From Azolla caroliniana (Eukaryota > Plantae > Polypodiophyta): a DNA stretch of 64,000 bases. Positions 1-62,117 of this stretch are shown here, piece after piece (within the stretch, counting starts at the first letter, position 1; each line of letters begins with the position of its first letter). The position numbers and the translations under genes are program-made. The notes beneath the pieces were generated by a model. The model was not told where the DNA came from and made no database searches. It worked only from the letters and a program-made list of their open reading frames with translations. The stretch covers positions 12,524,001 to 12,588,000 of the forward strand of contig JBHGNT010000010.1 in NCBI GenBank assembly GCA_043228905.1. Direction: 5' to 3'.

Positions 1-3000
1 TTATTTAAACCAAACCACTAGAATATTACATTAACTAACTCATTTACTAAATGAATTCCATTGTAGTCTAGTTGGTTCAGATCCATTATTTTTACCCGAG
101 ACTCCTGGGTACAGCAATTGGCATGGGAGAAACTAGATACATCATAGATCTGGTGTTAATATCGCATCAATGGAAACCCTTGAAATTATTAAATCTTATA
201 ACCGAGAGTGTGTTAGAATAATCCTCTGTTTCTCGTTGATGCTTGCGCAATATATAAATATTATTTATTACTAATCAATGATTGCAATATTGAAAAGTAT
301 ACAAGATATAATCCATTCTAGTCTAGTTGGTTAGGATACTAGGCTCTCACTCGAGAGACCCGGGTTCAACACCCGACAATGGAAACGACAATATCATATA
401 TTAAAATTCCGACGCATATCATGTTTTAATTGTTTGATAACTCAAAAACTCAAGATTATGTTTGAAGCATTGATGACAAACTTTCCTCGATCAAGATTGC
501 AAAAATACGCATAGATTGTAGAGTAATAGTGAATTCTCGATCAACATTGCAACATATTTCTTTATTTGAAGCAAAGCACTAGAATATTACATTTAGTAAT
601 TCATTTACTAAAGTAATTTCATTTTAGTCTCCTTGGTTGGGATCCTTGTTTTTTACATGAGACTCCCGGGTACAACAATAGGCATTGGAAAACTAGAGTT
701 GTGGTTATGGTTGTGGTTATTTGGTTGTGGTTATTCGTCAACATTGGTACGACAAATTAGTACACCAGCAATTACAGTTTGGATAACTCTATACAATTTC
801 AAACAATACGCATAGAATACAAAATAATGTTCAACTGTCGACAAGCATTGCACCATGTTTCTCTATTTGTAGCGAAGCACTAGAATAGTACATTGACTAA
901 TTTATTTTCTAAATGAAGTCCATTGTAATCATGTTGCTTGGAATCGTTAATTTCTACTCGAAACGTGCAGGGACAAGTACAGGCACACGAAAAACTAAAT
1001 ACATTATATATCATGAGTTAATGTGGCATAGATAAAAACCCGTGAAATTAATAAATCTTAAAAACGAGAGTGTGTTAGAATAATCCTTTGTTTCTTGTTG
1101 ATGCTTGCGGAACATAGAAATAATATTTATTACTAATCAATGATTACAATATTTAAAAGTGCACAGGATGTGATACAATGTAGTGTAGTTAGTTAGGATA
1201 CTCGGCTCTCACCCGAGAAACTCGGGTTTAATTCCCGGAAATGGAAACGACAATATCATATATTAAACTTCCGAGGCATATCATGTGTTAATTGTTTGAT
1301 AACTCAAAAACTCAAGACCTAAAGTAGGCATTACAAAAATGTTTTACACCAGACTCCCGGGTAGAACAATTAGCATAGGAAAAACTCGATACATCATAGA
1401 TCATGAGTTAATATGACATCGATAAAAATCGTTGAAATTATTAAATCTTAAAAACCAGAGTGTGTTAGAATAATCCTCAGTTTCTAGTTGATGCTTGCAC
1501 ACTATATAAATATTGTTTATTACTAATCAATTATTGTAATATTAGAAAGTATATGATCCATTGTAGTCAAGTCGGTTAGGATACTCGGCTTTCACCCGAG
1601 AGACCCGGGTTCAACTCCCCCTGCAATCGAAACGACAACATCATATATTAAATTTCCAACGAGATACTATGTTAACTGTTTGATAACTCAAAAACTCTAG
1701 GCCTAAAATAGATGTTACAATTAACAAAATAATCAATATTATGTTTGAAGGATTGATGACGAACTTTACTTTGATTTTTTTCTCCTAACATGAATTTCTA
1801 AACTTACTCCCATTCTTTGATTAATGGTAAATGTTTCAAATGAAATTGGACAAAACATAATGTTGTTCGAGACAACAAAAAGATGTATATTTGGTTGTGG
1901 TTGTTCGTCAACATTGGTAGGGCAAATTAGTACATCAACAATTATAGTTTGGATAACCCGTATTAATCTCCTGGCAATAGAAAGGACAATATCATATATA
2001 AAATTTTGCGACGCATGTCATGTGTTAACTGTTTGATAACTCAAAAACTCAAGATGTAAAGTAGTTACAATAATGTACAATAAATAAAATGAACTCAAAA
2101 ACTCAAGCTCTAAGGTAGTCATTAGAATAATGTACAATTAACAAAATAATCCAAATTATGTTTGAAGGATTGATAATGAACTTTGATTTTATTTTTTTCT
2201 CCTCACATCAATTTCTAAACTTAATACGAATATTCAATTAATAGTAGAAGTTTCTAATGAAATTTGATAAAACATAATGTGGTTCGCGACAAGGAGAAGC
2301 AATATATTTAGTCGTGGTCATTCCTCAACATTGTTACGACAAATTAGTACACCAACATTGTTTCTTGATTTGAAGTAAAACACTAGAATATTATATTAAC
2401 TAATTCATTTACTAAAAGAATTCCAGTATAGTCTAGTTGGTTCGGATCCTTGTTTTTTACACGAGACTCCCGGGTACAACAATTGGCATGGGAAAAACGA
2501 GATGCATCATTGATCATGAGTTAATATAGCATCGATAAAAACACTGGAAATTATTAAATCTTAAAAATGAGAGTGTGTTACAATAATCCTCAGTTTCATG
2601 TTGCTGCTTGCACAACATATAAATATTATTTATTACTAATCCATGATTGCAATATTAAGAAGTACAGAAGATAGGATCCATTGTAGTCTAGTTCGTTAGG
2701 ATACTCGGCTTTCACCCCAGAGACCCGTGTTCAAATACCGCCAATGAAAACGAGTATATCATATATTAAATTTCCGGCTCATAGCATGTGTTAACGGTTT
2801 GATAACTCAACACCTAAAGTAGATGTTACAATAATGTAGAATTAAGAAAATAATCAATATTATGTTTGAAGGATTGATGACGAACTTTGCTTTGATATTT
2901 TTTTGCTAACATCAATTTCTAAAGTTAATCCCATTATTCAATAAATAGTAGAGGTTTCAATGAAATTTGACAAAACATTCTGTTGTTTGGGACGAGAAGA

Positions 3001-5398
3001 AGCAATATATTCAGTCGTGGTTATTTCTCAACATGGTTACGACAAATTAGTACACTGACAATTATAGTTTGGATGACTTGATAGAATTTCCAAAAATACG
3101 CATAGATTGTATCATAATGGTGAACTCTCGATCAACATTGCACCATATTTCTTTATTTGAAGGAAACCAATAGAATATTACATTAACTAATTCATTTACT
3201 AAATGAATTCCATTGTAGTCTAGTTGGTTCGGAACCTTGTTTTTTACACGAGACTCCCAGGTACAACTATAGGCATTGGCAAAACTAGATACATCATAGA
3301 TGATGACGTAATGTTGCATCGATTAAAACCCTTGAAATTATTAAATCTTAAAAACGAGAGTGTGTTAGAATAATCCTCAGTTTCTCGTTGTTGCTTGCAC
3401 AATATATAAATATTATTTACTACTAATCAATGATTGCAATCTTAAAAACTACACAAGATGTGAACCATTGTAGTCTAGTTGGTTTGGATACTCAGTTCTC
3501 ACACGAGAAACCCGGGTTCAACTACTTGCAATGAAAACAACAATATCATATATTAAATTTTCGACGCATATCATTTGTTAACAGTTTGATAACTGAAAAA
3601 CTCAAGACCTAAAGTAGGTGTTACAATTAATAAAATAATCAATATTATGTTTGAAGTATTGATGATGTACATTCCTTTAATTTTTCTCTCCTAACATCAA
3701 TTTCTAAACTTAATCACATTATTCGATTAATGGTATAGATTTCGAATGAAATTGCACCAAACATTATGTTTTTCGGGAGAACAAGAAGCAGTACATTCAG
3801 TTGTGGCTATTCCTAAACATTGTTACGATAAATTAGTACACCAACAATTATAGTTTTAATAATTTGATAGAATTTCAAAAAATACGCATAGATTGCAAAA
3901 TATTGGTCAACTGTCGACAAGCATTGCACCATGTTTCTTTATTTGTAGCAAAGCACTAGAATAGTACATTAACTAATTCATTTACTCAATGAATTCCATT
4001 GTAATCAAGTTGCCTCGACTCGTTGATTTTTGCCCAAGATGCGTGGGTACAAGCACAAGCATAGGAAAAACTAGATACATCATAGATCATGAGTTAATTT
4101 GGCAACGATAAAAACCCATGAAATTATTAAATCTTAAAAACGAGAGTGTGGTAGAATAATCCTCTGTTTCTCATTGATGCTTGCGCAATATATGAATATT
4201 ATTTATTACTAATCAATGATTGCAATATTAAAAAGTGCACAAGATGTGATCCATTGTAGTCTAGTTGGTTAGAATCCTTGGCTCTCACACGAGAGACCCA
4301 GGTTCAACTCCTGCGAATAGATTGCACCAACAATTATAGTTTGGATAACTTGATACAATTTCAAACAAACGCATAGATTGAAAAATAATGGTCAACTATA
4401 GTAAAGCACTAGAATATTACATTAACTAATTCATTTACTAAATAAATTCCACTATAGTTTAGTTGGTTCAGACTCCCGGGTACAACAATTGGCATTGGAA
4501 AAACTAGATACATCATAGATCATGAGTTAATATCGCATCGATAAAAACCCTTGAAATTATTAAATCTTAAAAACGAGAGTGTGTGTGAATAATCCTCAAT
4601 TTCTCGTTCATACTTGCGCAATATATAAATATTATTTATTACTAATCAATGATTGCAATATTAAAAACTACACTAGATATGATCCATTGTATTCTAGTTG
4701 GTTAGGATACTTGGCTTTCACCCGAGAGACCCGGGTTTAACTCCCGGCAATGGAAACGACAATATCTATATAAAATTTCCAATGTATATCATGTGTTAAT
4801 TGTTTGATAACTCAAAAAGTCAAGCTCTAAAGTAGTTGTTATAATAATGTACAGTTAACAAAATAATCAATATTATGTTTGAAGGATTGATGACGAACTT
4901 TGCTTTGATTTTTTTCTCCTAACATCAATTTCTAAACTTAATCTCATTTTTCAATTAATAGTATAGGTTTCAAATGAAATTTGACAAAACATTATGTTGT
5001 TCGCGAAAAGGAGAAGCAGTATATTTAGTTGTGGTTATTCCTCAACATTATTACGACAAACTAGTACACCAAGAATTATAGTTTTGGATAACTTGATACA
5101 ATTTCTAACAATACGCATAGATTGAAAAATAATAGTCAACTGTCGATGATCATTGCACAATGTTTCTTTCTTTGTAACAAAGGACTAGAATGGTACATTA
5201 GCTAATTCAATTACTAAATGAATTCCATTGTAATCAAGTTGCCTCGCATCCTTGCTGTTTTACTTGACACGCTCGGGTACAAGTAGATATATCATATATC
5301 ATGAGTTAATGTGGCATCGATAAAAACCCTTGCAAGTATTAAATCTTAAAAATGATAGTGTGTTAGAATAATTGTCAGTTTTTCGTTGATGGTTGCGC
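1..5398 (+). repeat. tRNA-Glu-derived tandem satellite, block 1 (monomer ~780-800 bp, many internal deletions)
   Basis: Recurring motifs TCCATTGTAGTCTAGTTGGTTAGGATACTCGGCTCTCACCCGAGAGACCCGGGTTCAACTCCCGGCAATGGAA, GAAATTATTAAATCTTAAAAACGAGAGTGTGTTAGAATAATCC and AACATCAATTTCTAAACTTAATCCCATT in fixed order and one orientation. Confidence 0.95.
4683..4755 (+). pseudogene. tRNA-Glu-like copy, TTC anticodon in a CTC-type body
   Basis: TCCATTG/CAATGGA acceptor stem intact; anticodon loop CTTTCAC; T-loop mutated to TTTAACT; one D-stem change. Confidence 0.7.
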
Positions 5399-6104
5399 TG
5401 TCGTAGTGTATTCCACACACTACGTGAAAACCATAAAATAATATATCCGATTTTAGATACATATAAATAAATAAATAATATATCAAAAGAATTTATCACG
5501 TGCATAGGGCAGGATTCGAACCATGCACCTCCGCGTAGGTAAACCCCAACTTTACCATTGCAATAAATTATCTTTAGTGTTATAAATATAGATTTAATAC
5601 ATATAAGACCTTTATTTACACATACCTTTATTAAAAGGTAAAAATCATGTATTCTTTAGAGTGTGAATATTTTATTTACACGTGCCATTAAAAGTGACTC
5701 ATGCACGTCTAGTGTGCATGAGCTCTATATTTAGGAAATGACAAAGCATCACATGCACATTTAGTGTGCATGGACACTTTAGGTGAAAAAGCATGAAGCC
5801 ATGCTTAGCCTCTTCCATCTTTATATAAGGAGGAGAGAAATATGTATAAGGTTGTTGATTAATATAGAAGAATTGATCAATCTAATATATTCGTGGGATT
5901 CACGAATTTTGCCATCTAAATTACTCTTATAATCTAAATATTGTTTTAAAATAAACTAAACTCGTGGGCTTATCGAGATTACTATCTTACTTCTCTTCCT
6001 ATTATTCATAACTAGCCTTAAGTTGTATTCCTCTTCCTCCTAGTCCAAAACCTCGGCGGTTCCCACCCGACTCACGCAACGATCCGAAGCCGAAGGGCTC
6101 GACA
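5399..6104 (+). repeat. 5' LTR of element 1
   Basis: TGTCG...CGACA inverted termini; near-identical to 11765-12469 (about 12 substitutions and 1 indel by eye). Confidence 0.95.
5512..5565 (-). promoter_or_regulatory. tRNA-like Pol III A-box/B-box module in the element 1 LTR, antisense (also at 11878-11930)
   Basis: Minus strand reads TATTGCAATGG(TAAAG)...GGTTCGAATCC; box starts are 43 nt apart, as in tRNA. Confidence 0.55.
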
Positions 6105-6108
6105 CAGT

Positions 6109-6126
6109 TGGTGAACCCGACGTGAA
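6109..6126 (+). promoter_or_regulatory. Primer binding site complementary to tRNA-Trp
   Basis: TGGTGAACCCGACGTGAA is the reverse complement of the plant cytosolic tRNA-Trp 3' end (TTCACGTCGGGTTCACCA), 4 nt after the LTR. Confidence 0.9.
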
Positions 6127-6142
6127 AACGGGTGGCAAGGAG

Positions 6143-8176
6143 ATGGAAAATCAACCGGAGGCTAGCAACATGATGATGATGTTCGAGCGCATGCTACAAG
6201 AACAACGAAACGGGCAATTCAGTGGAGCGGCTCGTGCAACGAAACGGGCAATTCAACGGGAAAGACGTGTCTCGGTATCTTTGGGACTACAAGGCGGAGA
6301 TGCTACGGTGCGGAATATCGGAAGGACTGCAAGTGACGTCCTTCAACCGGGTGGCGACCGACGGGCTTCAAGCAAGCATCCATGGGCTACGACAGCAAAA
6401 TCCGACATGGGAGGCGTTTGAAGTAGAGCTAAACAGGACGTTCGCCATCGAGGATTCGTCCAAGGCGACGCGAAGGGGATTTGAAGATTGGGTGGAGACG
6501 CCGGACAAGGGATTGAAGGTCGTTGATGTGTTTTCGGCATTCGAAAGCCAGTTCGGGAGGTTGTCCGCGAGAGATCAAGCTATCCTCGTACCGGACAAGG
6601 TGATCATGTTCTTGCGAGCGCCGTGGACATCCAGGACCGGAAAGATCTCGGAGTGCTCTTGGAGGACACGACCACGGAGAGAGGCCTCACTGAAACATGG
6701 GAAAGCGTGCGGGATATCGTCGCGTGATACACGAAGAGGGGGCAATGGCTTGCCAACGAGGAAAAGAGGGTTTCGGAACCGATTCCGAAACCGAGAACCG
6801 GATTGGAAGACCATCAACTGAGGGCTCGAGAGAGTACAACTGAGAAGGGGATTGATGCATCTACGGTGGAGCAACTATTGAAGGAGATGGAGAATCTGAA
6901 GATCGCGATGGTGAAGAAGTCGGATGACCGCCCCACAAGCTCCAAGTATACGGACCGACGGTGCATATGGTGCGATAGCGCCGAACACGATCGGAGGGAT
7001 TGCGACGAGCATAAGGAGGCGCTATGGCGGGATCTCATCTACTACGAGGGAAACCGGATTCATTCGATGGACTCTCGGAAGCCTCTCCGACCGAACTTCC
7101 GGAAAGGCGGCATGAAGAAGGTGCTCGAGGAGGAATTGGCGGCAAGAAGCAACTATGCGACAACCGCGGGAATATGTGTCGGGGAGTCATCGAGAGCAAA
7201 GACGTCTTTTTGGCCGGAAGTTCTAGAAAACACCGAGAAAACCGACTCTAACGAGATCCGAAGCACCGCGGAAGGCGTCCGGGAAGCTACGGGATGGGAG
7301 TGCTCTGTCGACAAGAATAGCGTATACGCCCTATGACAATTGCATAAGGTGTATGTGGACGAGAAACGACGACGCACGGAGGATGCGGCCGGGCCATCAA
7401 AGATACCGGAAAGCTGGAACTCCGGAGGTAAGGGAAAAGAAAAGGCGACTCCGGCATTCAAGCTCGCCTCGGACATAGAACAACAAACCGACTTGAAAAG
7501 AGTGTTCGAGGAAAAAATCTTGGATAGCCGAGTAGATTTCTCGCTTCGGGAGCTACTCGGAATAGCAAAGAAGGAGTTCCACGATCTTCTCGTGGATCTC
7601 GTGAAGCGAAAAAGACAAAGTACGGAGGAAAATGCTCCAAGGGTGAATGCGAACACCGTTTTAATGATCGACACCGAAGTGGAGGACGAAATTCCGAACT
7701 CCCACTATACAAGGCCACATTGGGCACGCGCGACTACGGAGACTCCGGTCCGAATCGGCAACATCAAAGAACCCGTGCTAGCATTGATTGATCACGGATC
7801 GGAGATCAACTTGATGTCCAAGGAGTTCTACCGGAAGGGGAAGTGGCCTATTAACACCAACCATGGATGGAAGATTCGGGCGGCCACCAAAGCAACGGAA
7901 GATCTATTTGCGGCTTGTCCGGATGTGACGGTGAAGATCGGGGATGTCGAGATCGACCAAAATTTCTTCGTGCAAGATGAGGTTTCACATTCCGTCATCC
8001 TCGGCCAACCCTTTATTACGGCATCACGGATGGAGACGAAGGTGCTCGATAGCGGTGCGGCTTTTGCGCGAATTCGGAGCCAAAACGGTGGAAAATCCGT
8101 CCAATTCCTAACGGTGCCGGCAAATCACGAAAGGAACAAGAGGGAACTCTTGTCCCAAGTGAGAATGGATTTTTAA
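6143..8176 (+). pseudogene. gag: gag-protease ORF of element 1 (disrupted)
   Basis: ORF pieces 6122/6222/6803/7340; zinc knuckle CIWCDSAEHDRRDC (CX2CX4HX4C); aspartic protease LIDHGSEIN...ILGQPF; frameshifts near 6220 and in 6620-6800; in-frame TGA at 7334. Confidence 0.88.
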
Positions 8177-8230
8177 AGCGGACTGTTGCAGAGTGGGGAA
8201 GTGATAGTCCGAGAAGCCCTGATACCCCAC
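8167..8230 (+). promoter_or_regulatory. Predicted -1 ribosomal frameshift signal (G_GAT_TTT plus pseudoknot)
   Basis: Slippery heptamer directly before the gag-PR stop; -1 frame open downstream; stem 8179-8189/8201-8211; loop GTGGGG pairs with CCCCAC at 8225-8230. Confidence 0.75.
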
Positions 8231-11200
8231 ACAGGAAGAAAACTCTCGGAGCAAAACATGTACGAATCGCTCTGGATGGGGCATCTACGTACACGACCGT
8301 AACCGGAGGATTGAAGAAAGGATACCGACAAGTGGAGGATAAGTTGCGGTCGGCATCAATAATAAAAGAAGATGAAGAAATCGTGGGGATAGTCGAAGAA
8401 GTGTTCTATGGGAGCACACTACAACGACTTGAAGAGCTTGCAGAAGATAAAAGCCAAGGGAACCGGGTAGTCCCGGTGGAATCGGTCGAGATGTACGAGA
8501 TCATTTAGAAAATGGAGCCAGATACGCTCCGCAAAGAAGGAGCAATGGTAAGTACGAAATACAAGACCGTGGAGAAGAAGGTGAAACCGGCTGCGGGACC
8601 ACTACCCGCCGATAGCGAACAAAAGAGGAAAGAAGTCTCGGGAGATCCGACACTTCGGAAGTCCGTGGATATCGGACATGCCTTCACGGATGAGACCCGG
8701 AAGAAACTTCGGATCGGTGGAGGTGGGTTCCTATTACAAAAAGAAGAAGAACGGTTTCGCGAGATGTTGGAGCAATATGGCAAAGCGTTTCCATTTACAT
8801 CAAGGGAGATAGGGTGCGTCGATCCGAGAATAGTGGAGCCGATGGTGATCTTCACGATTGACCATGTACCGTGGAACCTGAAGCCGATTCCGGTGCCACG
8901 AGCGCATATTCCGAAAGTCATTGACTTGCTCAAGGAGAAGGTGGCGATGGGGATTCTAGAGCCATCAACTGCTCCGTACTCAAATCGATGGTTTACGGTT
9001 CCGAAGAAGAATGGGTCACTCCGATTTATCCAAGACTTGCAACCGGTGAATAAGGTCACGATCCGGAACTCGGGAGTCAGTCCGATAGTGGATGAATTTG
9101 CGGAAGCTTTTGCCGGTTGTGCGATATACTCCATCGGAGACCTATACTCGGGTATGACCAATTCCAACTAGCCGTGGAGAGCCGAGACATCACAACCATG
9201 CGAACACCGATAGGATTAGTCCGAATGTGCACACTACCACAAGGAGCGACAAACTCGGTTGCTCATATGATGAACGCGATGAACAAGGTGCTTCGAGACT
9301 GCATTCCGGAGATAACGATGCCGTTCCTCAATGACATTCCGATGAAAGGATGCGCGGTAGAAGAAAAAGATGAAACTATGGATGATCGGGGATGCCGAAA
9401 GTTCGTGGTCGACCATATTCATGATTGCGAGAAAGTGTTGCGAAAGCTAGAAGATGTGCACCTAACACTTTCCGGGGAGAAATCGGCATTTGGGCAAGAA
9501 GAAATATTGGTGGTCGGACATCTATGTGGGCCCTACGGTCGAAGACCGTCACCAACAAAGATCGATGCGATTCAAGCTATGGAGGAAGTATGCGAGTCAA
9601 CATCCGAAGTCCGAAGGTTTCTCAGTGCATGTGCATTCTATCACATATGGATTCCGCACTATGCACATATAGCGGATCCGCTCTACCACTTGTTGCGGAA
9701 AGGTAAGAAATTCGAATGGAAACCGGAACACACCAACGCCATGAAGAAATTGAAGAAGACACTTCGGAGGGCGGAAGCACTTAAGAAGCCGAGCTATGAC
9801 CGACCAATCATAGTAACGGTTGATACAAGTCCAACCGGTATCGGGTGGGTCATCAATCAAGCCGACTCGGATGGTTCGCGGTATCCGATCCGATTCGGAG
9901 CAAAGGTTCTCAACGAAAGGCAACGTGGATATGCGCAAGTCAAAAGAGAACTGTGGGGAGTCATGTCAGCGATAAAATCGGATCGGGATTATTTGATCGG
10001 AGCCGAAGTGGTGATCGAGACGGATTGTCTTCCGATACTCGGGATGATGCGGTGTTGTACGATACCGGATGTAGCTATGCTAAGGTGGGTTGCATATGTC
10101 AAGTTGCTTAATCCGGAGGTTCGACACATCTCGGGGAAGGACAACGCGGTAGCGGATATGTTATCAAGGGCTCGGTTCGGGCACGACATAACCGAATCGG
10201 ATAATGAAGAAGTTTCCGAAGACTACTTCGCGTCGGAGCACATATGCCGAGTAAACGTAATCCGGGAATTCCGGGAAGAAGAATACGAGGGAGAAAGCTT
10301 GATGATCGGGAAGATGTTACAAGAGGCCGAGGATTCAACAAACGATAAAGGAAGAAGAGCCGAGATCCGAAGGAAGAAGAGACAAGTCCAAAAGTTCTTC
10401 TTGGAAAACGGATTAATATGGAGGGCGCCGAAAAGACCGGATGGTATACCACTTCGAGTAGTCGGGACAAAAGAGCAACGAAACCGGATAATGTCCGAGT
10501 TTCACGAATCCGATTGGGCTGGACACCGAGGAACATGGGCAACATTTGTGAAGATCAAGCAAAAATATTGGTGGAAGAAAATGTACAAAGATGTCGCGGA
10601 GTTCACTGAAAGCTGCGAGAAATGTCAAGTCTACTCCAGGGTTCGACATCGAGATGAGTTACATCCGACATTCTCACCGACAATCAACTTCAAGTGGATG
10701 GTTGACATAGTGGCCATGCCGACCGGGATCGGACAAAAGAAATACTTGGTATTAGCTCGGGAAGATCTCACGAATCAAGTAGAAGGTCGAGCGCTTCAGA
10801 GAAAAACGTGTTCCGCGGTATGCCAATTTCTTTTGGAGGAAGTATTTTGCAAGTACGGGTGCGTAGGACAAGTGATTGCGGACCGGGGAGAACTCGACTC
10901 GGACAAAGCTAGGGGATTCTTCGCTAAACACGGAGTTCGGTTATTGCTGACAACGGCATACAATCCGGAGGCCAACGGGAAAATCGAACTAGGACATAGT
11001 CCGATCGTGAAAGCACTTGCGAAGGCATGCGATGGAAAGGTGAAGGACTGGCCGCAGATGCTTCCGTATGCACTATGGGCGGATCGGACGACGCATAGTT
11101 CCATAACCGGTTACATGCCGGCAGAACTCATGACCGGACAAGCACCGGTAATGCCGACGGAAACCGTGATCGCAACATGGACAGTGCTACCGTGGAAGGA

Positions 11201-11807
11201 AGAGATGAGCCGGGAAGAACTACTAGCGGTCCGGATACGACAACTAGAGGGAAGACCGGCAGACATAGTGGAAGCAATACGCCGACAACAAGAAGCACGA
11301 TTAAGGAACAAAAGTCGGTTCGACACAAAGCACCGACTACAACCGAGGAGGATTGAAGAAGGAGATTGGGTGATCGTCTATGACAGTAGTTTGGACCATC
11401 AACATACAACGATGCGGAAATTCGCGAAAAGGTGGTTCGGGCCATACGAGGTTCGGAAAGTCTTCGACAACGGAACGTACCGACTGTCCGAGTTGGATGG
11501 AACAATACTACGAGTGCCTATAGCCGGGAAGCGGGTGAAGATTTTCAAGAAGCGGACCGACGACAAACCCTATGTGATCCGAGCCAAGGCCGACAACGAG
11601 GAGCAATCGGACGAAGACCACGGTGATGCGGGAAGCGAAGAAAGTGAATTACAACTCATAGTCGACATAAGGGGAGAATCGAAGGAAGCTTTGGGTGTAG
11701 ACGGATATGGGGGATCAAGAACTTCGGCACATACCGGAGGATGTGCGGGTTCGGAGGGGGCGAATGTCGTAGTGTATTCCACACACTACGTGAAAAACAT
11801 AAAATAA
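8170..11807 (+). pseudogene. pol: pol (RT-RNase H-integrase) of element 1 (disrupted)
   Basis: RT motifs VPKKNGSLRFIQDLQPVN, DLYSG/YDQF (frameshifted ~9152), LPQGATNS, FLND (catalytic D to N); RNase H TVDTSPTGIG...ADMLSR; integrase H..H..CEKC and D-D-E (DIVAM, IADRG, NGKIE); in-frame TAG at 8506; the ORF runs into the 3' LTR. Confidence 0.93.
11753..11764 (+). promoter_or_regulatory. Polypurine tract of element 1
   Basis: GGAGGGGGCGAA immediately before the TG of the 3' LTR. Confidence 0.85.
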
Positions 11808-12469
11808 TATATCCGATTTTAGATACATATAAATAAATAAATAATATATCAAAAGAATTTATCACGTGCATAGGGCAGGATTCGAACCATGCACCTCCAC
11901 GTAGATAACCCCAACTTTACCATTGCAATAAATTATCTTTAGTGTTATAAATATAGATTTAATACGTATAAGACCTTTATTTACACATACCTTTATTAAA
12001 AGGTAAAAATCATGTATTCTTTAGAGTGTGAATATTTTATTTACACGTGCCATTAAAAGTGACTCATGCACGTCTAGTGTGCATCAGCCCTATATTTAGG
12101 AAATGACAAAGCATCACATGCACATTTAGTGTGCATGGACACTTTAGGTGAAAAAGCATGAAGCCATGCTTAGCCTCTTCCATCTTTATATAAGGAGGAG
12201 AGAAATATGTATAAGGTTGTTGATTAATATAGAAGAATTGATCAATCTAATATATTCATGGGATTCACGAATTTTGCCATCTAAATTACTCTTATAATCT
12301 AAATATTGTTTTAAAATAAACTAAACTCGTGGGATTATCAAGATTTCTATCTTACTTCTCTTCCTATTATTCATAACTAGCCTTAAGTTGTATTCCTCTT
12401 CCTCCTAGTCCAAAACCTCGGCGGTTCCCACCCGACTCACGCAACGATCCGGAGCCGAAGGGCTCAACA
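11765..12469 (+). repeat. 3' LTR of element 1
   Basis: Direct repeat of 5399-6104, TG...CA, followed by TSD GCGC. Confidence 0.95.
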
Positions 12470-14633: not shown

Positions 14634-15057
14634 TGTCTGGAATAGTACTAAAGCAGAGATGGAATTAGTGCTAAGAAGAACAGTACTATTAGTACTAAGA
14701 GGACGGGACTGCGTAAGATTCCCGAGAGAGAGGAAGTGAGAAGAGGAGAGAGAGAGATAGGATGATGACAACAGCTCTTATATTATATGAAAGATAAGTA
14801 CAAATTGGCTAAGAGGCTTAAGACTGGTGTTGAACCAATTTGGTTCAAAACAATGCCTTGTGCCTCCTTTTATAGTGTTTTTAGGAATAATCCTGAAGCT
14901 TCTAGAATGTTCCAGAGAGATCTGGAATATACATCAATTTTCTATGATAAAGCATAAATAAAAATAGTATCCTACAAATTACAATTCATAGTCTAATGGT
15001 AAGAGCTCGACCCATGTAGCATAAGGTCATGGGTTCGAGTCTTGCCATATCATGACA
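14634..15057 (-). repeat. 3' LTR of element 2
   Basis: TGTCA...GACA termini; about 8 substitutions and 2 small indels versus 19757-20180 by eye. Confidence 0.95.
14989..15042 (+). promoter_or_regulatory. tRNA-like Pol III A-box/B-box module in the chromovirus LTR, antisense to the element (also ~20113-20165 and 61676-61729 on -)
   Basis: TAGTCTAATGG(TAAGA)...GGTTCGAGTCT; box starts 43 nt apart. Confidence 0.6.
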
Positions 15058-15068
15058 CTATCTCCCCC

Positions 15069-18000
15069 TTAAAGACGACGAGTGGAACGAGTCGGCGCTA
15101 ATTGTGGACCGGGTTTGTCCGGATACTTTCGGTGGAAATTGGCAAGAAGATCTTGTGCATTGGCAACATGCTGGACGGGTTCCCAAGTACGTTTGCTCAG
15201 ACTATAACCGAACCAATCGACCAAGTAATAAAGTTTGTTGCGAACAAGTTTGGAATCGAGGATGGCAGCAACTTCATACTTCGGGCCGGCGTCCAACTCC
15301 AGCGGGGGCGGCGGTGGTGTCACACGATCGGGAATGGTGTTTGCTTTATAAGGTTCAAGAAGAGAACAATGGAAAACCGGATGTATCTGAAGCTACAAAG
15401 GGAGATCAAGGCGGAAGGAGACATCATTAATCTTACCCGTAATACGGAAGGGACTGAGTCGTCGATAATCCAACTTGTCGCACGGTCGAGTAGTCTTGAT
15501 GTGACGACGTAAGAGCCATACTCGATCTCCGATGGCAAAAGAGGAGGGAATCCGATGACGATCCGCATAAGTCTTTTGTGTGTGTTGAGCATGATGAAGG
15601 TGAGTAGAGAGATCCATCTGGATCTTGCGTAGCCTCTCCAAATGATCCTCGGCACGAGGGTTGGTAGGTAGCTCCGGAGTGTCGATCACCGACCAGCGAG
15701 GATGAAAACCGGTATAAGCGAAAAATGGGGAGACCCGAGTCGAGGAGTGAATAGCATTATTATACGCAAACTCTGCAAAGTGGAGAATCTCAGCCCAATC
15801 GTCCTGTTGATAACTCAGCGTTTGGTTTGTTCGTTCCGCCTGCCCGTCGGTCTGAGGATGGTAGCCCGAGGAGAGGTTGCAGGAGACCTTGAGCATCTTG
15901 AAGAGATGCTGCCAAAATTTGGAGACGAATTGCGGGCCTCAGTCACTGATAATACTGTCTGAGAGGCCATGATGCCAAAATACCTCACGCATAACAAGAG
16001 CGGCGGTTTCCTCGCTAGTGATGGCTTTAGTACACGGCACAAAATGTGCCATCTTCGTGTATCGATCGACGACGGTTAGGATAGCATCAAACCCCTTCGA
16101 AACCGGCAGATCTGTGATAAAATCAAGACAAATAGACTGCCACGGCTTACTTGGAATCGGTAAGGGTTCCAAAAAGCCATATGGATGGTGTCGTGGCATC
16201 TTTGCTCGGCAGCAAGCATCACAGGTACGAACGTAGTCGTCAACAAAACGGCGCATGTGGGGCCACCAAAAAGATCGCTGCCCTAGCTCCAACATCTTAG
16301 TACTACCGAAATGTCCCGCGTATGGGTGTCGTGACAATGTTGGACGATTTGAAGGCGACAGGAGCAATCGGGGACATATACGCACTTTTTAAAGAATAAC
16401 AAACCATCATGATATTCGAATTGTCAGTAGTCAATACCTGGTTGTTGAGGCCGAGAACAGGATGCCCGAGAAGTATCAATGTGCACCAGGATGTCTTGAG
16501 CAAAACTATCCGTCTTCAAGGTTGCACGTATGTCATCGGTAATCCGTGAATCCATCGGGGTGTGAAAAATCCGTGTCGTGTGCAATCATGTTGGTCCCAA
16601 GATTACTTGCTTTTGATTATCAAAAGTTGCGTCACCGGGACGAGGTGCAAGATAGTGCATTTGCTTTTCCTTGCTGCTTCTCCGGTCGATATGTGATTTT
16701 GAAGTCGAAACGCGTGAGGAATTGCGCCCACCGAGCTTGCCGTCGATTTAGTACGCAAGCGTTTTGAAAATAAGCAAGATTTTTATGATCGCTAAAGACA
16801 ATGACCTGATGAGGAGAGCCCTCTAAGAGATGCCGCCATTGTACAAATGAATCCACGATGGCTAATAACTCCTTGTCATGTATTTCGTAGTTGATTTCTG
16901 CGACATCGAATTTGCGCGAATGGAAAGCCACCGGATGCAACTCTTCTTTATCGCCTTGTTGAGAAAGGATGCTACCGAGGGCGAAATCTGATGTGTCGGC
17001 CTCCATGATGAATGGTTTGCTTGTATCCACATGAGCTAGAATCGGTGCTGATGTAAAGGCTTTCTTAAGATGCCGAAAAGCCATATCTGCTTCTATGGAC
17101 CAAAGAAATGCTTGGCCCTTCTTCGTAAGTTGTGTGAGAGATAAAATAATCTTCGAGTAATCCTGTATAAACTTACGGTAGAAGTTAGCAAAACCTAGAA
17201 AACATTGTACATCTCGTATCGACTGTGGAATTTGCCACTCTAGTACAGTTTGGATTTTAGCTGGATCCATGGTGATGCCCTTTGAGGAGATGATGTAGCC
17301 TAGAAATTCCACTTGCTTGCAGCCAAAGCTACATTTTTCTAGCTTGGCATAAAGACCATTCTCACGGAGTCGCTTTAGTACTAATAGTACATGAGAATCG
17401 TGCTCTTCCTGGGTCTTCGAATAAATCAATAGATCATCCAGATAAATGATCAAACAGATATCCAAGAGGTCTCTGAATATATCATTTGCCATGTGTTGGA
17501 AGACTGCGGGTGCATTGGTTAGGCCAAACGGCATAACAGTATACTCGAAATGCCCATACCGCGTGCGAAAGGCGGTCTTCCACTCATCTCCCGGTCGGAT
17601 CTGCACGAGGTTATACGCTCCTCATAGGTCGATTTTAGTAAAAAACTTGGCACCATTAAGTCGCTCTAAAAAACTTGATATAAGAGGAAGTGCATACCTA
17701 TTCCGGATGGTGACTTTATTCAATCCGCGGTAATCAACGACAAGACGAAGTGAGCCATCTTTCTTCTTGACAAAGAAGATGGGTGCACCGACCGGAGATT
17801 TCGAATGGCGGATGAACCCTTTTGCGAAGTTCTCCTCTATGTAGGCTCGAAGGACTTCTAACTCGGTGGGTGACAAGTTGTAAATTGGTCCCCATGGTGG
17901 CTCGGTTCCTGGTTGTAAATCGATGGGACAGTCATAGGGACGGTGATGAGGAAGGGTACCGGCTTTTACCTTGTCAAATATATCGGCATAAGGATGATAT

Positions 18001-18537
18001 TTTGCCGGAAGTTGTACTGAGGAGTCCTTCTTGGGGTGAAATGGTCGAAACTTGGTGAGTTGATTCTTGGGGTGGTCGATATCAGACTTCTCTTGTTCTC
18101 CAATCTATGGCTGGATTATGTAATTCAAACCAAGGTAATCCTAGGACAATGGGATGCTCTGGACTACTAATTATATTAAATGATATTACACACACAAAAC
18201 TACCTAGGACAACCTGAATGGGTTCTGATTCTTCTACAATATTCCCGGAAGCAATGGGATGACCATCAATGACTACTACAGATGCAGGACAAGGAAGTTT
18301 TCTTAAGGATATCTGAGAAGCTTGGGCAAAATTTCGATCCATGAAACAGGAATTAGCTCTGGAATCTAAAAGTGCTAGGACGGGTACTGGGGGAGTACTT
18401 GTAGTACTAACAATGACTTGGGCTAGGAACACATTGCTAACTTGCTTGGAAGGAATGGAACCACTAATGGGCTGTACAGATCTAGGGCTGCTCTCCAACC
18501 AAACGGCTCCTATTTTGGCTGGACTCAATCGTTTAAC
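15069..18537 (-). pseudogene. pol: pol of element 2: protease-RT-RNase H-integrase-chromodomain (fragmented)
   Basis: LLDSRANSCF protease; KTAFRTRYGHFEYTVMPFGLTNAPA and IYLDDLLI RT; EADTSDFALG...ELLAIV RNase H; GHFG...CDAC, LDFITDLP, YHPQTDGQAER integrase; chromodomain YEVAAILDS...YYLVDWFGY...TWEP at 15069-15323. Confidence 0.95.
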
Positions 18538-19682
18538 TCTTCATCTAATTGACTAAGGATTTCAAATTTATTTGAGATACTTGGGCTATTAATACTATGA
18601 ATACTATCAAACACTCTATTAGTACTCTTAATACTATCAAACACTCCTGAGGGAAGAATTGACTCGGGTTTAGTACAGGCTACAATTTGATTTACCTGTC
18701 TTCTTGGCTTATGGGGACAATTGATTGCGATATTCCCTGGTCCACTGCAATAAAGACATAATCGATTTGCACGTCGTCGTTGCTTTTCTTCTTCCGATAA
18801 CGGGCCGCGTCGACGCATGGTATCGATCTCCATCGGTGTCGAAGTATTTGCTTGAAGTATGTCTCGTGCAAACGGTCTAGCCGCGACTGCGGCGTAAGTG
18901 GGCTCCGGCCTAGCGTGTGGTATCTGTAATTGACGTTTCGAACGCCGTTCGAAAAGGCGGTTGTCACATCGGACCGCTCGACTGATTGCCTCCGTAAGAT
19001 ACTTTGGTTCTTCGGGGAAGGTTAGAAGTAGATCTTTGACATCATTTCGTAGGCCATAGCGAAACTGCTCCATTAGTGCTTGATCATCCCAGGGTATGTC
19101 GGAAGCGAGTAAGCGGAAATCCGCCGCGTAGGCCGAGGCTGGACGATCGCCTTGACGCAATCGCCGGATCTTGTTGATCGTCGTCCTGATGTTGTCGGTG
19201 TCTCCAAAGCAGGCTTTGAACTCACTAATAAAATCTTCAAAGTTATTAAGCAAGGGCGATTGTTTTTCTAGAAGCGGAGCAAACCATGCTAAGGCTGAGC
19301 CGCTAAGCAACGTGCCTATTAAGCCGACTCGGGATGCATCAGTGGGCTATCGGGAAGGATGCATTTAGAGGACTAATCGTACCTGATTAAGGAATCCCCT
19401 GAATTGCGATCGCGTTCCATCAAATTTCACAGGAAGTCCAATCTTCGGCTCTTTATGAAATCCTTGGGGACTTGATCCTTGTTGTTGCAATGCCACTTCG
19501 AGTTGTTGCACCCGTAACGCTAACTCCCCATGTTGTTACTGCGTTTGTTGCTTTTCTAGAGCGATTTGTTGCAGATCCCCTATCAGCCGTTGGTTTTCTT
19601 GTTCCAGGGCAACAAACTTTTCTTTTAGGCACTGTAACTCGGAGAAAACGGATTGATATTCTTGGGCACTAACAGTAGCCAT
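18525..19682 (-). pseudogene. gag: gag of element 2 (disrupted in the 5' part)
   Basis: Retrotransposon gag (LSGSALAWF...LRQGDRPASAYAADF...FRYGL), PMEID motif, knuckle CLYCSGPGNIAINC (H to N); colinear with 62173-63330. Confidence 0.92.
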
Positions 19683-19756
19683 AGTAGAGGGACAAGGGTA
19701 GGAGGATGAGGGAGAACGACAAGTAGGCTGGAGGAAAGAAAAAAATTGGTTCCATC

Positions 19757-20180
19757 TGTCAGGAATAGTACTAAAGCAGAGATGGAATTAGTACTAAGAA
19801 GAACAGTACAATTAGTACTAAGAGGACGGGACTGCGTAAGATTCCCGAGAGAGAGGAAGTGAGAAGAGGAGAGAGAGAGAGATAAGATGATGACAACAGC
19901 TCTTATATTATATGAAAGATAAGTACAAATCAGCTAAGCGGCTTAAGACTGGTGTTGAACCAATTTGGTTCAAAACAATGCCTTGTGCCTCCTTTTATAG
20001 TGTTTTTAGGAATAATCCTGAAGCTTCTAGAATGTTCCAGAGAGATCTGGAATATACATCAATTTTCTATGATAAAGCATAAATAAAAATAATATCCTAC
20101 AAATTACAATTCAGTCTAATGGTAAGAGCTCGACCCATGTAGCATAAGGTCATGGGTTCGAGTCTTGCCATATCATGACA
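19757..20180 (-). repeat. 5' LTR of element 2
   Basis: Direct repeat of 14634-15057, followed by TSD CTAGT at 20181-20185. Confidence 0.95.
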
Positions 20181-20424
20181 CTAGTTGGTTCAGATACTTG
20201 TTTTTTACACGAGACTCCCGGGTACAACAATTGGCATGGGAAAAACTAAATACATCATAGATCATGAGTTAATATCTCATCGATAAAAACCCTTGAAATT
20301 ATTAAATCTTAAAAACGAGAGTGTGTTAGAATAATCCTCAGTTTCTCGTTAATACTTGCACAATCTATAAATATTATTTATTACTAATCAATGATTGCAA
20401 TATTAAAAAGTACACTAGATATGA

Positions 20425-47277: not shown

Positions 47278-49675
47278 TTTTTTTTTTCCAAAAAAAGAAA
47301 CTATTTCCATTAGTTAAGCAATGTACAAAGGATAATTTACAACTCATATCTTATAAGACATCTTGCATATCGAAGGAAAACAATAGGTGTAGATGAAACA
47401 ACAACAAAAAATAACTCCAAAGCACCACATCATTCGATGTGTATAGCATAACTCGAACGCATATTCTCCACGTGAGCCTCATACAAGCAGAATTTAGAAT
47501 AGATGTCCTCCATTCGCTCCTCAAGGCAGCACCCATCTAGATGTTAGGTACACTTGGAGGGAACAGCCACCGTGGTGGTTGATAATTCCACTTTCACTTT
47601 ACCATCCATTAGCTGTAGCATCAACGAATCGCTCCATTTCAGCAAGAAATGAGCTCTCTCTTCTTCACTTGCGTCAAATGGCCCTTGAAGACTTTCAAAC
47701 TCACCTCGCAACGTACAAATAAGATTGAACCAGATCATCATTAGATTCTCAGCAGGCGGGGTTCGTTTACCGGAAAAGGTCTCCTTGCACCTAGATACCC
47801 ACACTTGCCAGACCGTAAGGCCGACCACTAATACCCATATGTCCACGCAACGTTCCTGTAAGAAGAATAAACCTCCTTGCGTTGGTTGCACAGATCCTTG
47901 TATCACCTTTAAAGAAGGATTGTTTCCATTCCAACCTTGAAACCAAGAGGCCGATTCAATGGCCAACCAAGTGATTGTTGCGCTCGATACATGAACCTCA
48001 ACCCCGAACCGAGCCCAGTTTCTTAATCTCCTCAACCAATTTTTTTGCGCTCGAGGGCAGCACCACAAACAATGAGCGATGTCCTCCAAGCTCGCACTAC
48101 AGGCCTTGCAACCACTCATGCCGCCTCTATTCCCAAGCCACTCTCCCGTTGGAACAGCCCGATGGGTGATTAACCAGAAAAACACTTTGATCCGCTCAGG
48201 AAGGGATGAGTTCCATATCCTGCTCCTAGTTTTATCCACGAAGGCTAAATCGATAGTTGCATGGGACCACTTGTTGGCACACTTCTAACGATTCGAACCT
48301 AACTTTCTCCCCAACCGTGTCGAGTATTCGAAGAAACCTAATGATTTATCTTGTTCTCCCTTCCACGTATATTCAACGGGATCCCATTCTACGCGCTCGA
48401 GAGGCTTGCCTTCAACCACGTACAAGATCCAATCCTCCTCAACCTCTACGACTGGTGGATTCACCTTCCATTTCTTTCTGCCTCTTGCCACAATTCTAAT
48501 CGGGTGCCAGCCTGCACTTTCATCTAATAATCCAATCTGGACTGGCTTCCCATTCTTTCCTACACCCCTGACATTGATAATTTTTCCGGTATCATCACAT
48601 TGTCCGGACCATTCACCCTCTTCCTCATTACCAATAGGAAGCGAGGAGACAGTTGTATTGACTACGTCAAGCATCTTTCTGCCATTTCTGACCTTTCCCA
48701 AGTCTTCATATAGTTGATCACGATTATTGTCAGACAGCCGCATCCAATAAGCCACTGACTGTATCCCTAGACAATACAATGTAGCCCACGGCATGTGCGT
48801 GCTTTGTCCAAGCATCATTCCTTCTGGCGATTGTACGATCTCGTTCCACAGTAGGGGTTGGCGCATCCATTCAGCACTCGTACTTGGACGATTCCGACTT
48901 AGGTTCCCACGGAGCATACTCCACGCCAGCGTCACTGACATACAAGTACGATCAGCCAACCGGTTATATTTCCTCAACTTTAAGGCCATACAAAAAGGCC
49001 ACGCTTTGTGTGACTTCCAATGCCTACCTAGTCTTGGACTCCAGACAATGCTCCTATTATGTATCAATGTTTTCCATAACTCGTTACCAGGTAGCAAGCT
49101 CCTTACCAATACCTTACATAACAATGCTTGACTCTGCAATCTAGGGTCAACCAATCCTAAACCCTGCTTACTCTTGGGAAGAACCAACGTAGACCATGAT
49201 ACTTTGGCTGCCGCGTTGTCTTTCCTCATCCCAGCCCAAAGGAATCCCCTAATACACGCTTTAACATTACGAATAACTTGCTTGTCAAACATCCACACTG
49301 AAACTGCATGCCATAATGTAGACAAGAACACATGGTTAGCTACTATGATCCTGCCAGCCAATGATAAGTTCATCCCTGACCAGTTGTGAATTTTGTCACA
49401 TATTTTGCTTTGAATTTGTTGCAACTGAATTCCTTTGTCGATATCTACCCCAATCCACGTTCCCAGATACCGAGTGGCTTCCCCGTTTGCAATCCATTTG
49501 AATTCAGCATTTGGCTTCCAAACTGTCTCGGACTCCAAGATGATACAAAAACCCTTGGACTTCTTATCGTCCACGAACTCTGAGTCCAGCAGGGACTTCC
49601 TTTAATTAGGGATCGAAAGACCATGAAGATTTTCCCCTTGACTGTTAAAAAGGGCAGACATTGCTTCAGTAATAA
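47278..49675 (-). mobile_element. 5'-truncated L1-clade LINE
   Basis: Poly(T) at 47278-47287 (poly-A tail on -); ORF2 remnants EFVDD (RT FADD-like, ~49570), RYLG, W...LSLAGRIIVANHV, VSWSTLVLPKSKQGLGL, zf-RVT-like CKAC...EDIAHCLWCC; satellite resumes in register at ~49676. Boundaries +/- a few bp. Confidence 0.92.
47544..49675 (-). pseudogene. LINE ORF2 C-terminal part (RT end and cysteine-rich domain), disrupted
   Basis: ORFs 48285-49574 and 47544-48239 are in the same frame and separated by a stop; further stop near 49602. Confidence 0.88.
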
Positions 49676-61660: not shown

Positions 61661-62103
61661 TGTCATGATATGGCAAGACTCGAACCCATGACTTTATGCT
61701 ACATGGGTCGAGCTCTTACCATTAGACTATGAATTGTATTTTGTAGGATATTATTTTGATTTATACTTTATCATAGAAAATTGATGTATATTCCAGATCT
61801 CTCTAGAACATTCTAGAAGCTTCAGGATTATTCCTAAAAACACTATAAAAGGAGGCACAAAGCATTGTTTTGAACCAAATTGGTTCAACGCCAGTCTTAA
61901 GCCTCTTCGTCGCTTGTACTTATCTTTTCACATAATCTATTAGCTGCTGTCATCATCTCTCTCTCTCTCTCATTCTCGCTATCTCTCTCTCTCCTCTTCT
62001 CACTTCCTCTCTCGGGAATCTTACGCAGTCCCGTCCTCTTAGTACTAATAGTACTACTGTTCTTAGTACTAATTCCATCTCTGTTTTAGTACTATTCCTG
62101 ACA
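61661..62103 (+). repeat. 5' LTR of element 3 (443 bp, expanded CT tract)
   Basis: TGTCA...TGACA termini; TATAAAA at 61844-61850. Confidence 0.93.
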
Positions 62104-62105
62104 GT

Positions 62106-62117
62106 TTGAACCAATTT
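62106..62117 (+). promoter_or_regulatory. Non-tRNA (self-priming type) primer binding site
   Basis: TTGAACCAATTT is complementary to AAATTGGTTCAA at 61877-61888 in the LTR; no TGG start. Confidence 0.75.

What the first reader, a model, noticed from the sequence alone, without database searches (positions are those of the whole stretch)
14982..15057. Chromovirus LTR carries an antisense tRNA-like Pol III promoter at its U3 tip
Seen: TAGTCTAATGG-TAAGA-27 nt-GGTTCGAGTCT ends 15 nt from the LTR terminus, in all three LTR copies (the 5' LTR of element 2 has a 2-bp deletion at the A box). The A-box region resembles the array's own TAGTCTAGTTGGTTAGGA. The module also forms a hairpin CTCGACCCATG/CATGGG(T)TCGAG. 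Known: Cassandra TRIMs carry 5S Pol III promoters in their LTRs, and tDNAs/B boxes act as chromatin barriers. Inference: a captured tRNA/SINE head that could insulate the LTR promoter in heterochromatin, or drive antisense RNA into the integrase end from the 3' LTR and outward from the 5' LTR.
Basis: partly seen in the sequence, partly recalled or inferred. Interest (0 to 1): 0.7.

Follow-up and report, generated by a model that had tools for sequence, protein, structure and literature searches.

The report
Backward tRNA promoter kept in LTRs
A whole group of full-length jumping genes, probably from mosses or their kin, keeps the control boxes of a tRNA gene back to front at the outer edge of its terminal repeats while the rest of that tRNA has worn away, likely as a protein-binding site that would help keep the element's own promoter open in silenced chromatin.

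Summary
Observation confirmed base for base (A box 14989-14999, B box 15032-15042). It is not a local accident. Of 66 LTR tips of related self-priming Tcn1-like chromoviruses, chosen by chromodomain alone, 53 carry an antisense B-box core (sense 1; shuffles 3.9). Fifty-one carry A plus B at tRNA-gene spacing, covering 19 of 28 sequence clusters. Across those clusters the boxes and the tRNA variable-loop letters AGGTY keep 78-92% identity, against 36-39% for spacer and flanks. The tRNA stems show no covariation. An unrelated Ty3 element in the window (pol 22% identical) carries the same antisense module. Best reading: a selected type-2 Pol III (TFIIIC) promoter, likely acting as a barrier or open-chromatin site for the LTR's Pol II promoter. 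Binding and function are untested, and no RNA data were available. The closest known elements, Helenus/TRIMp3, are non-autonomous and sense-oriented. Ten paper searches found no description of this antisense form. The scan noted similar LTR boxes in two probably fungal genomes.

The parts
14989..14999 (+). A box (tRNA positions 8-19), antisense to element 2, in its 3' LTR U3
15024..15028 (+). AGGTC at tRNA variable-loop positions 44-48; conserved across clusters although not used to call the module
15032..15042 (+). B box (tRNA positions 52-62), 15 nt from the LTR terminus
14996..15048 (+). Family-specific hairpin over the spacer and B box; not conserved clade-wide
14634..15057 (-). 3' LTR of element 2 (424 bp)
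19757..20183 (-). 5' LTR of element 2; 414 of 422 aligned bases identical to the 3' LTR
20112..20165 (+). Module in the 5' LTR of element 2; A box damaged by a 2-bp deletion, B box intact at 20155-20165
61676..61729 (-). Same module in the 5' LTR (about 61661-62103) of element 3
14867..14874 (-). TATA box of the LTR's predicted Pol II promoter (also 19992-19999), 115 bp inside the A box
14830..14840 (-). Predicted self-primer at the start of R (also 19955-19965); covaries with the PBS across relatives
19744..19756 (-). Self-priming PBS of element 2 (element 3 has the perfect match at 62106-62116)
15058..15074 (-). Polypurine tract
15069..15392 (-). Integrase C-terminal frame with chromodomain; homologues carry PF00385
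14629..14633 (.). 5-bp target site duplication CTAGT (copy at 20184-20188); the insertion splits a degenerate array tRNA-Glu A box
5512..5565 (-). Same antisense module (B 5512-5522, A 5555-5565) in the 5' LTR (5399-6104) of element 1, an unrelated Ty3 element without a detected chromodomain
11878..11930 (-). Module in the 3' LTR (11765-12469) of element 1

Best explanation
The U3 tip of these LTRs holds an antisense, tRNA-gene-derived A-box/B-box module whose box letters and spacing are conserved across a whole Tcn1-like clade; it is predicted to bind TFIIIC as a type-2 RNA polymerase III promoter and likely keeps the outer LTR edge open as a barrier, so that the Pol II promoter inside would stay usable after insertion into heterochromatin. 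Shown: the motif, its orientation and spacing, box-specific conservation, loss of tRNA stems, presence throughout one well-supported clade, and a second occurrence in an unrelated Ty3 family. Inferred: one capture of a tRNA gene or SINE/Helenus-like head in the clade's ancestor; TFIIIC binding (about 0.8); Pol III firing outward, ending at the T run in about half of the families (about 0.55); the barrier or anti-silencing purpose (about 0.45). The fixed antisense orientation would place the upstream TFIIIB site on the LTR's own A/T-rich DNA and keep Pol III from running into the Pol II promoter (inference).
For: Relatives were selected by protein only. Antisense GTTCRA lies in the first 120 nt of 53 of 66 tips, sense in 1 of 66, shuffled mean 3.9 with max 10 of 200. 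A free search over gaps 13-47 put G18-to-G53 at 35-36 nt in 53 of 66; the host tRNA-Glu has 35. The strict module is in 51 of 66 tips and 19 of 28 clusters, with 0 sense calls and shuffled mean 0.26. Mean identity among 19 representatives: A core 0.835, B core 0.924; positions not used in calling, 44-48 0.855 and 52/60/61 0.78; spacer 0.381, upstream 0.386, downstream 0.356, position 59 0.392, positions 10-13 0.373. That is the pattern of the A/B consensus (recalled: TRGYNNARYGG, GGTTCRANYC). At the B-box CpG, 19 tips have the box-compatible CA and 4 the box-breaking TG. T4 lies between B box and LTR end in 9 of 19, A4 in 1 of 19, shuffled 4.4, p 0.007. All module rows fall in one 100/100 clade of 26 rows; the 4 outside rows lack it. 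In element 1's family, contigs of 4 runs vary at box positions 10, 12, 13, 49 and 51 and in the spacer, while no variant is listed in the B box or at T8, A9, A14, A15, T16, G18, G19 (40 of 43 rows shown). Analogy: a tDNA barrier needs TFIIIC and Pol III (PMC2040200, abstract). The moss chromovirus RLG1 is transcribed although concentrated in heterochromatic islands (PMC7466625, passages).
Against: No binding, transcript or chromatin data. The fission-yeast barrier works in either orientation, whereas this module has one orientation, which could point to an RNA- or direction-dependent role. Element 1 has the module with no chromodomain detected, so the link to heterochromatin targeting is not exclusive. 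Six rows inside the clade lack a strict call: one with 43-nt spacing, the others decayed or rearranged. Two distant relatives of element 1 lack it. G10 of the A box is not conserved. The window's family has no T4 inside the LTR. No conserved upstream TATA or CAA position stands out from the A/T-rich background. Clusters share descent, and 72 of 77 loci bear record names of one accession series, so the counts are not independent events.
Confidence: 0.45

Rival explanations
1. The selected product is an antisense Pol III RNA that would temper the element's own expression or feed small-RNA silencing.
For: Fixed antisense orientation; both boxes kept at transcription spacing; T4 enrichment. In the window's family the first T4 from the 3' LTR is at 15574, so a transcript would cover the PPT and chromodomain.
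Against: Predicted lengths vary from a stop inside the LTR (9 of 19) to about 900 nt beyond the B box. No conserved RNA structure.
Confidence: 0.2
2. The boxes act in integration: they would serve as a TFIIIC/TFIIIB landing pad steering new copies into old LTRs or tRNA genes, or tether the cDNA end to Pol III loci.
For: All three LTR elements of the window sit in a tRNA-Glu array. Element 1 ends 67 bp upstream of a tRNA-Glu gene. An earlier scan note (e1-10420520, unchecked) proposes this for a fungal chromovirus.
Against: The three insertions have no common register: upstream of a tRNA, inside an A box, and downstream of one. Flanks beyond the LTR terminus are heterogeneous (agreement 0.36-0.37 in 37-67 contigs per run, 4 runs). 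Only 1 of 60 loci holds an ARAGORN tRNA, though many contigs do not reach true flanks.
Confidence: 0.12
3. The sense copy in the genomic RNA would pair with the D, variable and T loops of a packaged tRNA, or with the self-primer, to aid strand transfer, as recalled for the Ty3 3' PBS and HIV-1 U3-R.
For: The conserved letters are also those complementary to tRNA loops, and the CA-over-TG bias fits G-U wobble too. Element 1 has a tRNA-type PBS (match to tRNA-Trp recalled, not tested). The B core resembles the complement of the self-primer.
Against: The Tcn1-like elements self-prime. Positions 10-13, 49-51 and 59 vary freely, unlike pairing with one tRNA. The U3 box does not follow the self-primer/PBS covariation (by inspection). 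Fixed 35-36 spacing is not needed for pairing.
Confidence: 0.1
4. Neutral relic of one old tRNA or SINE insertion.
For: One ancestral origin fits the tree; decayed copies exist.
Against: Spacer and flanks are near saturation (0.36-0.39) while box and variable-loop positions stay at 0.78-0.92; spacing is held; an unrelated family shows the same constraint.
Confidence: 0.05
5. A structured tRNA-like RNA (tRNA mimic) is the functional product.
For: Full tRNA-length layout; strong hairpin in the window's family.
Against: Acceptor, D, anticodon and T stems pair no better than shuffled partners (p 0.13, 0.45, 0.55, 0.54). No Rfam tRNA hit at the module in the window or in 14 loci.
Confidence: 0.03

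Closest known systems
Helenus / TRIMp3 (Kojima 2024, PMC10886601; parts 1-4 of 6, searched passages and 4 supplement passages read)
   Same: [quoted passage not shown]
   Different: Helenus is short, non-coding and, in the sequences seen, sense-oriented, with Pol III proposed to make the element's RNA. Here the element is a full-length gag-pol chromovirus with a TATA promoter, and the module is antisense at the U3 tip. The paper notes that 'not a few LTRs' hold tRNA-like pieces but analyses only TRIMs.
Cassandra TRIM (as described in PMC10886601)
   Same: Pol III internal promoter inside a plant LTR.
   Different: 5S (type 1) promoter, non-autonomous, transcription starts in the 5S part and produces the element's RNA.
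Tcn1 chromovirus clade, Tf1/Sushi group (Neumann 2019, PMC6317226; 12 passages read); moss RLG1 (PMC7466625; passages read)
   Same: Chromodomain integrase, self-priming PBS, known from moss and club-moss.
   Different: No Pol III module is mentioned in the passages seen. RLG1's own LTR was not examined here.
tDNA heterochromatin barrier of S. pombe cen1 (PMC2040200, abstract) and extra-TFIIIC sites of C. elegans (PMC6950938, abstract)
   Same: TFIIIC-bound boxes at heterochromatin edges: the proposed working model.
   Different: Host elements, not carried by a retrotransposon; the cen1 barrier is orientation-independent.
Ty3 bipartite 3' PBS, HIV-1 U3-R tRNA-like sequence, Drosophila mdg1 LTR Pol III promoter (all recalled; no text seen)
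   Same: tRNA-related or Pol III signals in the LTR of an autonomous element.
   Different: The first two pair with one primer tRNA; this clade self-primes and keeps only the generic box letters. The mdg1 promoter is recalled as sense.

Membership tests
Type-2 Pol III promoter (tRNA-gene type) | A box (consensus recalled) | tested here: met
   T8, R9, A14, R15, T16, G18, G19 conserved; G10 relaxed
Type-2 Pol III promoter (tRNA-gene type) | B box GGTTCRANYC (consensus recalled) | tested here: met
   53 of 66 tips with GTTCRA; 52/60/61 identity 0.78; position 59 free
Type-2 Pol III promoter (tRNA-gene type) | A-to-B spacing as in tRNA genes | tested here: met
   35-36 nt in 53 of 66 under a free search; host tRNA-Glu 35
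Type-2 Pol III promoter (tRNA-gene type) | Downstream T-run terminator | tested here: inconclusive
   T4 inside the LTR in 9 of 19 clusters (p 0.007) and in element 1; absent in the window's family
Type-2 Pol III promoter (tRNA-gene type) | TFIIIC binding and Pol III transcript | not testable with these tools
   Only assembled contigs were available
tRNA gene | Cloverleaf stems with covariation | tested here: not met
Helenus / TRIMp3 | Short non-coding element with LTRs, PBS and PPT | tested here: not met
   5.5-kb element with gag, RT, RNase H and integrase pieces
Helenus / TRIMp3 | tRNA-derived boxes A and B in the LTR | tested here: met
Helenus / TRIMp3 | Sense orientation (as seen in the supplement passages) | tested here: not met
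   antisense 53, sense 1 of 66
Tcn1 chromovirus (Tf1/Sushi group) | Chromodomain at the integrase C-terminus | tested here: met
   PF00385 on most of 89 homologues; Atlas neighbours of homologue P0016 are Tf2-like SH3 plus Chromo
Tcn1 chromovirus (Tf1/Sushi group) | Self-priming PBS | tested here: met
   PBS complementary to the R start and covarying across relatives
Tcn1 chromovirus (Tf1/Sushi group) | RT/integrase phylogeny with reference Tcn1 elements | not tested
   No named references were in hand; the tree holds session loci only
Ty3/DGLT-A-type Pol III-targeted integration | Fixed distance upstream of tRNA genes | tested here: not met
   Three insertions in three different registers; heterogeneous flanks

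The most novel reading that the evidence does not exclude
Autonomous bryophyte LTR retrotransposons carry their own portable tDNA insulator. A Tcn1 clade and an unrelated Ty3 family each acquired or exchanged an outward-facing TFIIIC/Pol III module that lets them stay transcribed inside the heterochromatin they insert into, and scatters thousands of TFIIIC sites through the host genome.
Probability: 0.4. Interest if true: 0.82.

Novelty: new variant of a known kind. Interest (0 to 1): 0.63.

Why it matters
How chromoviruses that target heterochromatin stay transcribable is an open question. A clade-wide, selected TFIIIC-type site next to the LTR promoter gives a precise target that can be mutated. 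Pol III promoters in LTRs were described, in the papers seen, for short non-autonomous TRIMs where they drive the element's RNA; an antisense one in coding elements must do something else. The family is highly repeated in at least four coded organisms, so such sites could shape chromatin organisation genome-wide.

Tried and rejected
No whole genome is held. Rfam gave no tRNA or SINE-type hit at the module. Sequencing runs: no RNA holder listed; only contigs could be laid, so nothing can be said on expression or strand. Viral contig scans found no relatives. The genome scan gave 2 distant relatives of element 1, both without the module. Rows dropped before counting: 12 of 77 loci (8 with no LTR start: L018, L035, L040, L042, L043, L058, L065, L068; 1 doubtful PPT: L067; 3 too short: L012, L031, L061). 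L018 does carry a module. The control region 121-240 held GTTCRA on both strands (12 antisense, 14 sense of 58), probably because of the self-primer palindrome, so it is not a clean control. Hairpin registers showed no covariation (best p 0.057). The label shuffle on the tree was not significant (86 of 500), because in-clade losses are scattered. Upstream TATA/CAA was not resolvable. Paper searches returned nothing; two returned Helenus; one returned one review (listing only); others gave classification and RLG1 papers. Three recalled papers were not held. Subscription journals and Repbase notes are not searched, so prior description cannot be excluded.

Full report
Setting. The window is a tandem array of roughly 0.8-kb units holding tRNA-Glu-like genes (30 ARAGORN calls), interrupted by three LTR elements. 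Element 2 (14634-20183, minus strand) has 5-bp TSDs, LTRs identical at 414 of 422 aligned bases, gag, RT and RNase H pieces broken by stops and frameshifts, and a chromodomain frame. Its PBS is complementary to the start of its own R region, and the two covary in relatives. It is therefore a self-priming Tcn1-like chromovirus, a clade reported from moss and club-moss (PMC6317226, passages). Named relatives of element 1 are liverwort proteins (Riccia, up to 62% over most of the query). A bryophyte host is an inference.

Observation. The B-box pattern GGTTCGANYY occurs 6 times in the window, 5 of them in LTRs. The hairpin folds far better than shuffles (z -5.85). Rfam and ARAGORN do not call a tRNA there.

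Conservation test. An alignment of chromodomain homologues retrieved 77 loci, the best of 297 confirmed stretches, with no reference to LTR sequence. Sixty-five gave a 3' LTR tip of at least 120 nt; with the window, 66 tips, median pairwise identity 0.60, in 28 clusters at 80%. An antisense GTTCRA lies in the first 120 nt of 53 of 66, a sense one in 1, against a shuffled mean of 3.9. A free search placed the A box 35-36 nt before the B box in 53 of 66; the host tRNA-Glu has 35. A strict call found 51 of 66 tips and 19 of 28 clusters, none on the sense strand. Among 19 representatives, identity is 0.84 in the A core and 0.92 in the B core, against 0.36-0.39 in spacer and flanks. Positions not used for calling are also held: 44-48 at 0.855 (AGGTY exact in 16 of 19) and 52/60/61 at 0.78, while position 59 and positions 10-13 are free. 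This answers the circularity objection and marks the module as derived from a tRNA gene. Distance to the LTR end varies from about 10 to 62 nt.

What is not conserved. The four tRNA stems pair no better than shuffled partners. The window's hairpin is strong only in its own cluster and shows no covariation. The donor is not the array's tRNA-Glu. A T4 run lies between B box and LTR end in 9 of 19 clusters (A4 in 1; p 0.007), starting at tRNA positions 63-81, but not in the window's family.

Distribution. An integrase tree of 30 rows puts all 20 module rows in one 100/100 clade of 26. The other 6 rows in that clade are decayed, rearranged or have altered spacing; the 4 rows outside lack the module. 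One ancestral gain is the simplest reading, with a midpoint root only. Element 1, whose pol is 22% identical to a Tcn1-like pol and whose LTR has no blastn hit in the loci, carries the same antisense module with AGGT at 44-47 and a T4 at position 86. In contigs of four runs its family varies at free positions and not in the box cores (40 of 43 rows shown). Two distant relatives of element 1 lack it. So two separate lineages hold the module, by independent capture or by transfer. In one search, related subfamilies in four coded organisms diverge just upstream of the A box yet keep an A box.

Mechanism. The conserved letters match the recalled TFIIIC A/B consensus, including its free positions, rather than any one tRNA or any RNA fold, so selection most likely acts on DNA binding. 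An antisense promoter cannot make the element's genomic RNA, which the TATA box 115 bp inward is predicted to drive. I favour a barrier or open-chromatin role at the LTR's outer edge (0.45). It rests on analogy with tDNA barriers (PMC2040200 and PMC6950938, abstracts) and on the report that moss RLG1 is transcribed although concentrated in heterochromatic islands (PMC7466625, passages). Against it: that barrier is orientation-independent, and element 1 has no detected chromodomain. Rivals are regulatory antisense RNA (0.2), integration targeting (0.12; no fixed register, heterogeneous flanks), tRNA or primer pairing at the RNA level (0.1), neutral relic (0.05) and tRNA mimic (0.03). No functional step was tested.

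Novelty. Helenus, Ajax and Cassandra are short non-coding TRIMs; the Helenus LTRs seen in the supplement passages are sense-oriented. That paper mentions that many Repbase LTRs hold tRNA-like pieces but does not analyse them. Ten searches found no account of a conserved antisense A/B module in coding Gypsy LTRs; subscription journals were not covered. The scan's earlier notes report promoter boxes in a probably fungal chromovirus LTR and a decaying backward tRNA relic in another; these are unchecked leads. Verdict: a real, selected feature and a new variant of a known kind, with function untested.

Noticed in passing
window 1-64000: Tandem array of about 0.8-kb units with 30 ARAGORN tRNA-Glu genes (CTC and TTC). 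Of 45 A-box matches only 20 have GTTCRA at +35, and 1 keeps the CG at 56/57, whereas all five LTR modules keep GGTTCGA.
   Followed up: partly
window 5399-12469: Element 1: Ty3 element with a 4-bp TSD (GCGC), tRNA-type PBS (tRNA-Trp match recalled), no chromodomain detected, LTRs about 98% identical; Phygy-like by description only.
   Followed up: partly
L009 about 2950-3010 and L019 about 6330-6390 (minus strand): A second antisense A/B-box pair inside the open protease-RT linker of pol; the B-box pattern GTTCGATYC was found in 2 of 8 related loci checked.
   Followed up: partly
L048 570-670: Another antisense module behind a purine tract and TGTCA start of an unidentified repeat, possibly a third family.
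   Followed up: no
window 14820-14850 and relatives: The self-primer sits in a conserved palindrome whose core GGTTCAA resembles a B-box or T-loop core in most families.
   Followed up: partly
window 47544-49601: Minus-strand frames with a zf-RVT domain, probably a LINE fragment in the array.
   Followed up: no
L011 128-201: A tRNA-Asp(GTC) gene about 1.9 kb upstream of the chromodomain match.
   Followed up: no
L078, L079: Eukaryote-type Ty3 integrase contigs in a cyanobacterial genome assembly, probably contamination.
   Followed up: no
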